Positions 3,409 to 12,170 of a DNA stretch of 64,000 bases are shown in pieces; within the stretch, counting starts at the first letter, position 1; every line of letters starts with the position of its first letter. This stretch comes from the human T2T-CHM13v2.0 reference genome, Homo sapiens. A program made the position numbers and the translations under genes. Where the stretch lies: assembly GCF_009914755.1 (NCBI RefSeq), contig NC_060933.1; one strand, written 5' to 3'. The notes under the pieces were generated by a model. It had not been told where the DNA came from and did no database searches. It saw only the letters and a program-made list of their open reading frames with translations.

Positions 3409-4410
3409 ATATTTTTTGGAGGATGTGCATGAGGATAAGCTATATGCACTTTCGTTGCCAACCAACACTACAGCTGCACAACTATTCAAGTCTTTGAATG
3501 ATTACATATCAGGAAAACTGAAGTGGTCATTTTGTGTTGTATATGCACAGATGGAGTGGCTGCCACGACTGGATGGCTTTCTGGTTTCACTACTCGGGTC
3601 AGTCCAACAGGTCGCTTCTGAATGTGAGTCTATGCACTGTGTCATCCACAGAGAAATGCTGGCTGGCCAAAAAAAAATGTCATCTCAACTTAACAATGTT
3701 TTGCAGGGTGTGATTAAAATTATCAACCACATTAAAGTACATGCCCTTAAATCATGTCTGTTCATGCAGCTCTGTGAGGAGATGGATACAGAGCACTCAT
3801 GTCTTCTCTTGTACACAGAAGTGAGGTGGCTTTCTAAAGATAGACCACTGGCCAGAGTTTTTGAGTCATGAAGCCTGCTCCAGGGATTCCTTTTCAAAAC
3901 AGTCATCACTGGCAGCACATTTCAGTGACACAGAATGGGTCGCAAAACTTGCTTACTTGTGTAATGTATTCAACCTGCTCAACAAACTCAATCTGTCAAT
4001 TTGGGGGAGACTGATAACTGTGTTCCAGTCAGCAGATGAAGTGCCTGCTTTCAAAACCAAATTGGAATTATGGGGCCAACAAGTGAACATTGGGGTTTTT
4101 GACATGTTTCAAACATTAGCAGATATTTTGAAAGAGACAGAGCCAGGGCCTCCTTTCTCCCAGCAGGTGCATGATTGCCATTCTTAGGTTTCAAAAGAGT
4201 CTGAGCTTTGCCTTCTGTGATGGTTAACACTGAGTGTAAACTCGATTGGACTGAAGAATGCAAAGTATTGATCCTGAGTGTGTCTGTGAGGGTGTTGCCA
4301 AAGGAGATTAACATTTGAGTCAGTGGGCTGGGAAAGGCAGACCCACCCTTAATCTGGGTGGGCACCATCTAATCAGCTGCCAGTGTGGCTAGAATATAAA
4401 GTAGGCAGAA

Positions 4411-5870
4411 ATCCTGAGTTCTAGTTTGATTGCACTGTGGTCTGAGAGACAGTTTGTTAACTACAGTAACCAAAACAGCATGGTACTGGTACCAAAACAG
4501 AGATATAGACCAATGGAACAAAACAGAGCCCTCAGAAATAATGCCACGTATCTACAACTATCTGATCTTTGAAAAACCTGACAAAAACAAGAAATGGGGA
4601 AAGTATTCCCTATTTAATAAATGGTGCTGGGAAAACTGGCTATCCATATGTAGAAAGCTGAGACTGGATCCCTTCCTTACACCTTATACAAAAATTAATT
4701 CAAGATGGATTAAAGACTTAAATGTTAGACCTAAAACCATAAAAACCCTAGAAGAAAACCTAGGCAATACCATTCAGGACATAGGCACAGGCAAGGACTT
4801 CATGTCTAAAATACCAAAGGCAATGGCCACAGAAGCCAAAATTGACAAATGGGATCTAATTAAACTAAAGAGCTTCTGCACAGCAAAAGAAACTACCATC
4901 AGAGTGAACAGGCAACCTACAGAATGGGAGAAAATGTTTGCAATCTACTCATCTGACAAAGGGCTAATATCCAGAATCTACAATGAACTCAAACAAATTT
5001 ACAAGAAAAAAACAAACAACCCCATCAAAAAGTGGGCGAAAGATATGAACAGACACTTCTCAAAAGAAGACATTTATGTAGCCAACAGACACAAGAAAAA
5101 GTGCTCATCATCACTGGCCATCAGAGAAATGCAAATCAAAACCACAATGAGATACCATCTCACACCAGTTAGAATGGCAATCATTAAAAAATCAGGAAAC
5201 AACAGGTGCTGGAGAGGATGTAGAGAAATAGGAACACTTTTACACTGTTGGTGAGACTGTAAACTAGTTCAACCATTGTGGAAGTCAGTGTGGAGATTCC
5301 TCAGGGATCTAGAACTAGAAATACCATTTGAACCAGCCATCCCATTACTGGGTCTATACCCAAAGGATTATAAAACATGCTGCTATAAAGACACATGCAC
5401 ACATATGTTTATTGCAGCACTATTCACAATAACAAAGACTTGGAACCAAGCCAAATGTCCAACAATGATAGACTGCATTGAGAAAATGTGGCACATATAC
5501 ACCATGGAATACTATGCAGCCATAAAAAAGGATGAGTTCATGTCCTTTGTAGGGACATGGATGAAGCTGGAAACCATCATTCTCAGCAAACTATCGCAAG
5601 GACAGAAAACCAAACACCGCATGTTCTCACTCATAGGTGGGAATTGAACAATGAGAACACATGGACACAGGAAGGGGAACATCACACACCGGGGACTGTT
5701 GAAAGGTAGGGGGAGGGGGGAGGGATAGCATTAGGAGATATACCTAATGTTAAATGATGAGTTACTGGGTGCAGCATACCAACATGGCACATGTATACGT
5801 ATGTAACAAACATGCACGTTGTGCACATATACCCTAAAACTTAAAGTATAATAAAAAAATAAATAAAAAA
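4411..5870 (+). mobile_element. 5'-truncated, 5'-inverted L1PA4-like LINE
   Basis: ORF2 C-terminus, 3' UTR and poly(A). 3' UTR diagnostics 'aatgttaaatga', 'ccaacatggc', 'gtaacaaac'. TSD taaagtaggcagaaa/taaagcaggtagaaa. 4411-4459 is antisense L1. Confidence 0.93.
4461..5647 (+). pseudogene. L1 ORF2 C-terminal fragment (premature stop at ~5254)
   Basis: [19 protein letters not shown]...CWRGC...HCW* then ...HRMFSLIGGN*, the L1 ORF2p cysteine-rich C-terminus. Confidence 0.92.
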
Positions 5871-6717
5871 TAAAGCAGGTAGAAAAATGTGAGAAGACTA
5901 CACTGGCTAGCCTCCAAGGCTACATCTTTCTCCCATGCTGGATGCTTCCTGCCCTGGAACATCAGACTACAAGTTGTTCAGTTTTCACTCAGACTGGCTC
6001 TCCTTGCTCCTCAGCTGGCAGACGGACTATTGTGGGACCTTGTGATCATATGAGTTACTACTTAATAAACTCCCCTTATATATATCTATCTATCCCATTA
6101 GTTCTGTCCCTCTAGAGAACCCTGACTGATACACTTTCCCGCCACAAAAGACCCCTGAGCTGGGAAGGAATGGATTTGTGATCCATTTTGTGAATAACCT
6201 GTGAATCCACTTAGTCTGTGCTAGAAGAGGATTAACTGCTTGAGATCACAAATGATGGCGGCCTTAAAAGTAAGTTTGACACAAATTCAAACCTCCATAC
6301 ATTCTGGATTAATGTCAAAGTGGAATATCCTGAGATTGCCACAAAAGCACTGAAAAGTCTGCTTCCATTTCCAACATCCGATCTTTGTGAAGCAGAGTTT
6401 TCTGCAGTGACACCAACCAAATTGAGATTATGAAGTAGACTGGACATAAGAAGCACACTTCAGGTGTCACTGACTCCCATCACTTCCAGATAGGACCATT
6501 TAGTTGCAGGAAAGCTAGCTCAGGGTTCCAACCGATTCTACATGATAGTGAGTTGTATAATTTTTATTGTATATGACAATGTAATAATTACAGAAATAAA
6601 GAGCACAACAAATGTGATGCATATGTTTTCATCCTGAAAACATGCCCTGCTCTGGTCTATAGAAAAATTATCTTCCCTGAAACTGGTCCCTGGTGGCAAA
6701 AAGGTTGAGGACCACTT

Positions 6718-6937
6718 TACTATAGGGTAGGGGTTGTTCATCAGGGATATGGGGGACAATCTAAGTACAATAACATCAAGGTCGTTTGACCTAAGAGCAA
6801 GATTTATGATAAATACCTGCTCCTACACAAAGAACAATAAATGAACTGGAAATCTTAGAGGGCTTCCTAGAACAAGGGTTAATCAGAAGCCAACATGACA
6901 AATTAGCTTCCCAGATGGAGTTGCTCTAGCCTCCAAC
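6718..6937 (-). mobile_element. LTR47-like LTR, U3 part only
   Basis: Reverse complement reads 'tggaggctagagcaactccatctgggaagctaat..ttctgattaaccc..ttaggtcaaacgaccttgatgttattgtactt', matching my recollection of the LTR47 5' half. Confidence 0.65.
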
Positions 6938-7608
6938 TGTCATCATCAATCCAACTTTTATAATCTCACGTGTCCTTTTCCTCAATGGTTCCTGAGCCTT
7001 TAGGGAGAGTGCCTGAATATTATATATTATACAGCTTTAGCAGCAGTGCATTGGCAATGCAAAACAGATAGTGCCCAATGGGATTCCAAATGAGGGAGAT
7101 TCACGGGTTCTGTTGAATCATCTCTAGTCTCCAGCATACCATGACTTTGGTTTTCTCGGAAGAAGTAAAACAATGAGAGATACATAACATGAATAACTTG
7201 AATAGTAGAAATATAATGCATATGAGGATTATAATCAAAAGAGAATTTGGATGCCAGCATATCACCAACAGAAAAGGAATGTATTCCATTAGGTAGCCAA
7301 TTAAAATTATCTTGAAGAAAGTTAAAACCCAGTTATTATTAAATAATTCTTACAGCCAGTAAGTAATTCAGGATTAAGCCCAAATTGCAGGCAAGTAATA
7401 AAAACTCAAAAGCAATGGTCAGGGCTAGAATCCAATTATTTGTCTCTTTAGGTTTCCCATTTCTACCAAGGATAAATCATAGTAGGAATAATTTATTAGC
7501 AAAATAAATTTTGGTCTCACTGTTCTTGGCCTGATTATTTGCATGAAATATAGCAATAATAGTGATTAGACTTATAGGTTCCTTTTAAGTCAGCTTTCCT
7601 GGAACTTT

Positions 7609-11031: not shown

Positions 11032-11049
11032 CTCCTGGCCTGGCTCACA
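11032..11049 (-). other. Retroviral primer-binding site, tRNA-Arg type
   Basis: + strand ctcctggcctggctcaca is close to the tRNA-Arg(ACG) 3' end CTCCTGGCTGGCTCGCCA and sits next to the LTR U5 end. Confidence 0.7.
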
Positions 11050-11055
11050 TTTTAA

Positions 11056-11222
11056 TGTAGGCAGGTCTATGCAAACCTATCTCAAAGTCTGAGGAAGCTA
11101 AAAGGCTGAAGAAAGAGGTGGACAAATCCAGTTTCTTAGAATAAATATTTAATAGTGTCTTATGAACAGAAGCTATGTCTGTGTCTCCGGTGGCAGTGAG
11201 AAAAGATGGTGGATCCTCACCA
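11056..11222 (-). mobile_element. LTR47-like LTR, R-U5 part only
   Basis: 'tgtaggcaggtctatgcaaacc..gaggaagcta..gacaaatccagtttc..ggtggatcc'. ATTAAA poly(A) signal on the minus strand at 11148-11153. Confidence 0.65.
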
Positions 11223-11286
11223 GATTTCTGTCTTTATCTTAACCAATGACTGTACTGCATGTGTTTTTATTATCTCATTTTCTAGC

Positions 11287-12170
11287 TGTGTTAGTCAGAG
11301 ATTTCTAGAGAGACAGAACTAATAGGTTAGATGTATATATAAAAAGGAGTTTATTAAGTATTAACTCACATGATCACAGGGTCCCACAATAGGCCATTTG
11401 CAAGCCGAGGAGCTAGGAAGCCAGTTCAAGTGTCAAAGCTGAAGAACTTTGAGTCCAACATTTGAGGGCCAGAAGAATCCAGCATGGGAAAAAGATGTAG
11501 GCTGAGGGACTAAGCCAGTCTAATCTCTCCACGTTCTTCTGCCTGCTTTATTATTATTATTATTATTATTATTATTATTATTATTATACTTTAAGTTTTA
11601 GGGTACATGTGCACGATGTGCCAGTTAGTTTCATATGTATACATGTGCCATGCTGGTGTGCTGCACCCATTAACTCGTCATTTAGCATTAGGTATATCTC
11701 CTAATGCTATCCCTCCCCGCTCCCCCCACCCCACAACAGTCCCCAGAGTGTGATGTTCCCCTTCCTGTGTCCATGTGTTCTCATTGTTCAATTCCCATCT
11801 ATGAGTGAGAACATGTGGTGTTTGGTTTTTTGTCCTTGCGATAGTTTACTGAGAATGATGGTTTCCAATTTCATCCATGTCCCTACAAAGAACATGAACT
11901 CATCCTTTTTTATGGCTGCATAGTATTCCATGGTGTATATGTGCCACATTTTCTTAATCCAGTCTATCATTGTTGGACATTTGGGTTGGTTCCAAGTGCT
12001 GTGCTGGCAGCTGATTAGATGGTGCCCACCTGGATTGAGGGTGGGTTTGCCTCTCCCAGTCCACTGACTCAAATGTTAATCTCCTTTGGCAACACACTCA
12101 CATACACTCCCAGGAACAATACTTTGCATCTTCAATTCAATTAAGTTGCCATTCAGTTTTAACCCTCACA
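11287..12170 (-). mobile_element. MLT2A1 solo LTR split by L1 (11287-11550 and 11998-12170)
   Basis: Reverse-complement MLT2A1 with TG..CA ends and TSD ctagc/ctatc. Confidence 0.9.
11551..11997 (-). mobile_element. Short L1PA3-like 3' end with (TAA)n tail
   Basis: Minus-strand 3' UTR reads 'aatgctaaatgacgagttaatgggtgcagcacaccagcatggc'. ORF2 end WNQPKCPTMIDWIKK...SLIDGN. Confidence 0.92.

What the first reader, a model, noticed from the sequence alone, without database searches (positions are those of the whole stretch)
4216..12170. Two MLT2A1 LTRs independently hit by different L1 subfamilies at the same TATA-box position
Seen: in both LTRs (4216-6133 +, 11287-12170 -) the L1 poly(A) abuts 'taaagcagg(c/t)agaa', in the same orientation relative to the LTR, i.e. 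within 'agaaTATAAAgcagg'. The L1s differ in subfamily diagnostics (L1PA4-like vs L1PA3-like), length (1.46 vs 0.45 kb) and junction type (TSD vs deletion), and the LTRs have separate TSDs, so one is not a copy of the other. The nick (TTTA/TA) is only a middling endonuclease site in a region full of TTTT/AA sites. Known: MLT2A1 is DUX4-activated at zygotic genome activation, and heritable L1 insertions can arise in early embryos. Inference: the opened MLT2A1 TATA may be an L1 integration hotspot that also disables the LTR promoter.
Basis: partly seen in the sequence, partly recalled or inferred. Interest (0 to 1): 0.75.

Follow-up and report, generated by a model that had tools for sequence, protein, structure and literature searches.

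The report
Two L1s hit one LTR motif
Two unrelated L1 retrotransposons sit at the same A-rich TATA site of two neighbouring retroviral LTR remnants; Alu elements hit that site repeatedly elsewhere but hit the LTR's polyA signal at least as often, so this is likely ordinary sequence preference plus chance, not a special embryo-promoter hotspot.

Summary
Both MLT2A LTRs carry a sense L1 whose tail abuts the TATA box. The two L1s are independent: 92.8% alike, each 95-97% like unlinked copies, and opposite at four lineage markers. A has a 16-nt TSD and a 5' inversion; B has no TSD and lost about 7 nt of target.

The site is a recurrent target: 14 Alus and 3 L1s were found there genome-wide. It is not special, though. 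In matched Alu-anchored scans the TATA site took 6 hits and the same LTRs' AATAAA polyA signal took 9-10, with comparable denominators (rate ratio 0.3-0.6, upper bounds 1.0-1.9). Of 26 mapped Alu insertions, 22 lie within 3 nt of endonuclease-like Y|RRRR steps. The TATA box stays attached to U3 in 16 of 17 cases, so 'promoter disabled' is likely only for B. B is listed as MLT2A2 in a published table.

What remains odd is two of the three detected TATA-site L1s lying 5.7 kb apart (expected 1e-4 to 1e-2 for this family and site). A locally LTR- and L1-dense region and many families scanned likely absorb this.

Verdict: a new instance of known nested-insertion hotspots; low interest.

The parts
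4216..4411 (+). LTR A 5' half (MLT2A1 U3) with complete TATA box at about 4391-4401
   Evidence: 93-95% identical to 39 other copies
4396..4411 (+). Upstream copy of L1 A's 16-nt target-site duplication
   Evidence: 14 of 16 identical to 5870-5885
4412..4459 (-). Inverted L1 ORF2 piece (5' inversion, likely twin priming)
   Evidence: reads [16 protein letters not shown] on the minus strand; assignment to the endonuclease domain is recalled
4460..5853 (+). L1 A: 3' part of ORF2 (one internal stop) and 3' UTR; lineage markers T-A-A-G
5854..5869 (+). T-interrupted poly(A) tail of L1 A
5870..6133 (+). Downstream TSD copy (5870-5885) and LTR A 3' half (native start region, AATAAA, CA end)
   Evidence: listed as MLT2A1, 0 TPM in PMC8559712 table S1
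11998..12170 (-). LTR B 5' half, ending before the TATA box (about 5-9 nt of target lost)
11583..11997 (-). L1 B: 5'-truncated 3' end; lineage markers C-G-T-A; imperfect 6-of-7 microhomology at the 5' junction, offset by 1 nt
11551..11582 (-). (AAT)n tail of L1 B
11287..11550 (-). LTR B 3' half, resuming inside the TATA box
   Evidence: 79% identical to A's 3' half; listed as MLT2A2, 0 TPM in PMC8559712 table S2

Best explanation
Two L1 elements of different lineages sit at the same TATA-box step of two neighbouring MLT2A LTRs, likely because that step is one of the few L1-endonuclease-like sites in the LTR and the two events likely fell side by side by chance in a region rich in both repeats. 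Shown: independent L1s, junction anatomy, repeated Alu and L1 insertion at this step, and equal or higher use of the AATAAA step. Inferred: L1 ORF2p nicked the bottom strand at or near CTTT/AT and primed reverse transcription on the poly(A). In A the second strand was cut about 16 nt downstream and also primed internally (5' inversion, TSD). In B second-strand joining was upstream of the nick and lost a few target bases. B's U3 lost its TATA box and is likely dead as a promoter; A's U3 and TATA are intact and would start, if at all, inside the L1.
For: Independence. Recurrence: 14 Alus with the site duplicated on both sides (10 of 22 rows, 4 more; junctions) and a third L1 with a TSD on contig C1 (L082). 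Motif control: sense Alu hits were 6 at TATA against 9 at AATAAA (10 with an older-family LTR), plus one L1 at AATAAA. Denominators were about 2000 and 1125-1650; rate ratio 0.34-0.64, upper 95% bound 1.0-1.9. The best TT|AAAA-like sense steps of one natural copy (83, 93, 174, 181, 200/201, 266, 368, 375) hold 22 of 26 hits in 16% of the span. Local density: 3 young L1 ends in the window and 2 in a 5-kb stretch 24 kb upstream; 7 MLT2A entries in 450 kb. Position hotspots inside older repeats are the rule: 82% of insertion types in PMC2836564.
Against: Two of only three TATA-site L1s detected lie 5.7 kb apart; expected number of such pairs is 1e-4 to 1e-2 for this family and site. An Alu hit at the same site (L040) lies 200 kb away, so 3 of 7 local entries are hit. 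Counts are small and come from exact-match patterns. Denominators were scaled by eye from the first 100 rows. The anchor words also catch older MLT2 families. AATAAA is a slightly better motif than TATAAAG (score 1 vs 1.5), so the control is not perfectly matched, and the score was set after I had seen the peaks. If the whole LTR is open in embryos (PMC8559712), a within-LTR control cannot see an LTR-wide boost.
Confidence: 0.8

Rival explanations
1. Open-promoter hotspot: DUX4-driven opening at genome activation exposes MLT2A to L1 ORF2p, raising insertion at the TATA box above what its sequence predicts.
For: MLT2A copies become accessible at the two-cell stage, start at consensus 205-215 and have TATA boxes upstream (PMC8559712 passages). 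11 of 14 sense Alu hits in LTR 75-249 fall in 176-204, between TATA and the start site.
Against: AATAAA, 190 nt away, is hit as often or more. The 176-204 stretch is also the purine-rich stretch that holds the motif-like steps. No embryonic expression is listed for the seven local entries. A version in which the whole LTR is boosted was not tested.
Confidence: 0.08
2. Neighbour-guided second insertion: after A was hit, the inverted LTRs paired on one strand, A's L1 looped out opposite B's TATA site, and the junction drew the endonuclease there, giving B an insertion at the homologous base with a target deletion.
For: Proximity is improbable for this family alone. The LTRs are inverted, so the + strand carries A's sense and B's T-rich cut strand. 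B is the likely younger L1 and lacks a TSD. ORF2p needs a nearby single-strand/duplex boundary (PMC10830416 passages) and cuts about 40-fold faster beside some mismatches (PMC12809410 abstract).
Against: Needs more than 5 kb of single strand and pairing at only 87% and 79% identity. No conversion tract is seen next to the junction. TSD-less insertions also occur without such a partner as far as fetched (L098, and the second Alu of L057). One case only.
Confidence: 0.05
3. B's L1 is a copy of A's L1 end, moved by gene conversion or template switching between the inverted LTRs.
For: Same 3' junction and orientation, 5.7 kb apart; B has no TSD.
Against: A-B identity of 92.8% is below each one's best unlinked matches. 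They differ at all four lineage markers and B carries none of A's private changes. The LTR sequences diverge right after the shared 14 nt.
Confidence: 0.02

Closest known systems
Nested-insertion hotspots in older repeats (PMC2836564; passages and section 13 read)
   Same: Retroposons pile up at a few positions of a target repeat, mostly in one orientation; 5133 Alu-in-ERVL events are counted there.
   Different: MLT2A1 is named in the main text only as an inserted element. Whether its supplement lists these positions is unknown (files unreadable). Here the peaks do match endonuclease-like steps.
L1 target-primed reverse transcription with 5' inversion or target-site deletion (established knowledge; motif TTTTT/AA as in PMC10830416 passages)
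   Same: A: tail, TSD, inverted 5' piece. B: tail, 5' truncation, small target loss.
   Different: A's inverted piece likely comes from far upstream in ORF2 (recalled position, not verified), a larger junction gap than usual.
MLT2A1/MLT2A2 embryonic LTR promoters (PMC8559712; passages and table rows read)
   Same: Both LTRs are entries in its tables; TATA lies upstream of start sites 205-215.
   Different: Both are split by L1 and listed with no expression; their 5' halves are under 200 bp and not in the tables.

Membership tests
L1 TPRT insertion (A) | Poly(A) tail and target-site duplication | tested here: met
   16-nt TSD, 14 of 16 identical; tail 5854-5869
L1 TPRT insertion (A) | Nick at an endonuclease-like Y|RRRR step | tested here: inconclusive
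   AT|AAAG is among the top 12 sense steps, but the T-interrupted tail leaves the nick open by 2-3 nt
L1 TPRT insertion (B) | Target-site duplication | tested here: not met
   No TSD; about 5-9 nt missing against intact copies. Fits the target-deletion class, not the standard one
L1 TPRT insertion (B) | Empty orthologous site shows that the loss came with the insertion | not testable with these tools
   No primate genomes are held (no relatives)
MLT2A solo LTR | TG..CA ends, 5-bp flank repeat, family match | tested here: met
   4 of 5 flank matches each; A in table S1 and B in table S2 of PMC8559712
Nested-insertion hotspot | Non-uniform insertion positions along the target repeat | tested here: met
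   6 of 14 within 6 nt, p about 4e-6; 17 insertions found at the site
Chromatin-driven TATA hotspot | Excess over a motif-like site in the same elements | tested here: not met
   TATA/AATAAA rate ratio 0.34-0.64, upper bound 1.0-1.9
Chromatin-driven TATA hotspot | Excess of the whole LTR over matched non-activated repeats | not tested
   No control family was scanned
Converted or duplicated L1 pair | Shared lineage markers and private changes | tested here: not met

The most novel reading that the evidence does not exclude
An insertion in one repeat can steer a later, unrelated L1 to the homologous base of a nearby inverted copy, through a looped intrastrand heteroduplex that presents a mismatch or single-strand junction to ORF2p ('echo' insertion).
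Probability: 0.05. Interest if true: 0.7.

Novelty: new member of a known kind. Interest (0 to 1): 0.2.

Why it matters
As found, it is a small addition: the two cis-signals of MLT2A LTRs, the TATA box and the polyA signal, are also their main L1/Alu landing sites because both are T-then-A-run words. Roughly 0.3-0.9% of copies are hit per site at this detection level. Sense insertions there usually leave U3 and TATA intact, so they would re-route rather than delete the promoter. It would matter more if the pairing of the two L1s proved non-random, since that would show that neighbouring repeats can guide L1 targeting.

Tried and rejected
Copying of A's L1 into B was rejected. An inversion swapping LTR halves was rejected because each LTR keeps its own flank repeat. 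A proviral LTR pair was rejected because the LTRs are inverted. A one-step scan for LTRs with an enlarged internal gap could not be run, so the histogram was built from end-anchored scans. The antisense Alu scan of LTR 262-460 was swamped by the LTR's own word; 147 of 247 rows were not shown and it is not used. The antisense Alu scan of 80-280 (36 rows) showed about 4-5 MLT2A-like junctions by eye, unverified and not counted. L1-anchored antisense scans gave 0 and 0. Two L1-end plus site patterns found no LTR case outside the window (2 window rows and 2 non-LTR rows; 2 window rows). A hint that hit copies more often have four or more A's after the T (8 of 17 vs about 19 of 75 by eye) was not significant (p 0.09). 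Two primary papers on L1 target preference were not held, so no published per-hexamer rates were used. Earlier scan notes were not available.
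Full report
Anatomy. LTR A spans 4216-6133 (+) and LTR B 12170-11287 (-); each keeps its own 5-bp flank repeat at 4 of 5 matches. They are separate insertions: 87% alike over the 5' half and 79% over the 3' half, while A's 5' half is 93-95% like 39 other copies. In A the 5' half runs through the full TATA box to 4411. It is followed by a 48-nt inverted ORF2 piece, 1.39 kb of sense ORF2 and 3' UTR, a T-interrupted tail, and a second copy of 16 target bases, 14 of 16 identical. 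In B the 5' half stops at 11998 before the TATA box; 415 nt of L1 3' end and an (AAT)n tail follow, and the LTR resumes inside the box at 11550. About 5-9 target bases are missing against intact copies and there is no TSD. PMC8559712 (passages seen) places MLT2A start sites at 205-215 with TATA boxes upstream, which supports calling this word the TATA box. Its tables list A's 3' half as MLT2A1 and B's as MLT2A2, both unexpressed (matched by a constant coordinate offset).

Independence of the L1s. A and B are 92.8% alike. B's 39 best non-self matches are 96-97% and A's are 95-96%; neither lists the other. At four sites that vary among 100 listed L1 copies, of 11,233 matches, A and B differ at all four. 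By eye, B's combination occurs in 44 and A's in 6. B has none of A's private changes. Copying is rejected. The subfamily names L1PA4 and L1PA3 are recalled.

Is the site recurrent? Yes. A tail-plus-site scan gave 22 rows: the 2 window L1s, 10 Alus inside MLT2A LTRs with the site duplicated, 1 intact LTR, 1 partial LTR and 8 non-LTR rows. An Alu-end scan anchored at LTR 249 gave 25 rows: 14 clear sense insertions, 1 ambiguous (L072) and 10 dropped (4 with no Alu-LTR junction, 6 with no LTR). The 14 map at 83-92 (3), 176-181 (6), 190 (2) and 200-204 (3). Together that is 14 distinct Alus at TATA. The matching L1 scan gave 3 rows: A, a third TATA-site L1 with a TSD (L082), and a rearranged insertion near 192 (L084). 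Two other L1 patterns found only the window pair in LTRs; antisense L1 scans found none. All counts are lower bounds from exact or near-exact patterns.

Is it more than the motif? The same Alu-end scan anchored at LTR 421 gave 18 rows. Ten sit at the AATAAA polyA signal (one in an older-family LTR), 3 elsewhere (368, about 389, about 396), 1 odd case was set aside, and 4 were judged non-LTR from the printed row only. One L1 also sits at AATAAA. Denominators scaled from the first 100 rows are about 2000 LTRs for the first anchor and 1125-1650 for the second. That gives 0.30-0.35% per LTR at TATA against 0.55-0.89% at AATAAA, a ratio of 0.34-0.64 with upper 95% bounds of 1.0-1.9. A crude mismatch score to TT|AAAA on one natural copy picks sense steps that cover 16% of the scanned span and hold 22 of 26 mapped Alus; I set the score after seeing the peaks. 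Limits: AATAAA scores slightly better than TATAAAG, the anchors admit older MLT2 families, and an LTR-wide boost from embryonic opening was not tested.

Promoter effect. In 16 of the 17 TATA-site insertions the duplication leaves U3 and the box together upstream; only B lost it. Loss of B's promoter is therefore likely, and A's is open. The absence of listed expression says little, because 361 of 5485 long copies are active in that study.

The residual. Two of three detected TATA-site L1s are 5.7 kb apart. With a per-LTR rate of 7e-4 to 4e-3 and about 195 neighbour pairs, the expected number of such pairs is 1e-4 to 1e-2 (assumed inputs). The region is dense in both partners: five young L1 ends in the 69 kb examined and seven MLT2A entries in 450 kb, one of them the Alu-hit L040. 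A neighbour-guided mechanism is conceivable, since ORF2p prefers single-strand/duplex boundaries (PMC10830416 passages) and mismatches (PMC12809410 abstract). It needs more than 5 kb of single strand and rests on one case, so I give it 5%.

Comparison with print. Hotspots of nested insertion are general: 654 of 799 insertion types in PMC2836564 (section 13). Two searches (listings only) showed no paper on MLT2A TATA boxes as insertion targets, but the supplement of PMC2836564 could not be read and may hold these positions. Verdict: a real observation with an ordinary main cause and one modest unexplained coincidence.

Noticed in passing
L099 (G000:C9:114557129-114557546, 24 kb upstream of L1 A, outside the window): The third-best genome-wide match to L1 A's 3' end (96%) is an inverted 450-nt L1 of the same sub-lineage. 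It shares lineage markers but no clearly private change, so it is likely a chance neighbour.
   Followed up: partly
L084 (G000:C20:62141802 region): A 100-nt L1 3' end near MLT2A position 192 is preceded by an inverted copy of LTR 135-213 and a 20-nt unit repeated about three times: an insertion with local templated duplication.
   Followed up: partly
L040 (G000:C9:114781651): An Alu at the same TATA site 200 kb from the window; 3 of 7 local MLT2A entries are hit at this site.
   Followed up: partly
L057 and L082: Single LTRs hit twice: L057 by Alus at 190 and at AATAAA, L082 by an L1 at TATA and an antisense Alu near the 3' end.
   Followed up: partly
window 4412-4459: The inverted L1 piece seems to come from the endonuclease part of ORF2, likely about 2 kb upstream of where the sense piece starts (recalled position, not verified): a large gap for a 5' inversion.
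   Followed up: no
window 3900-4215 and 6134-6500: LTR A appears to sit inside an older hAT/Charlie-like DNA transposon remnant (recalled resemblance, not tested).
   Followed up: no
window 55797-56051: A third young L1 3' end in the window shares B's lineage markers but is only 92.5% identical to B.
   Followed up: partly
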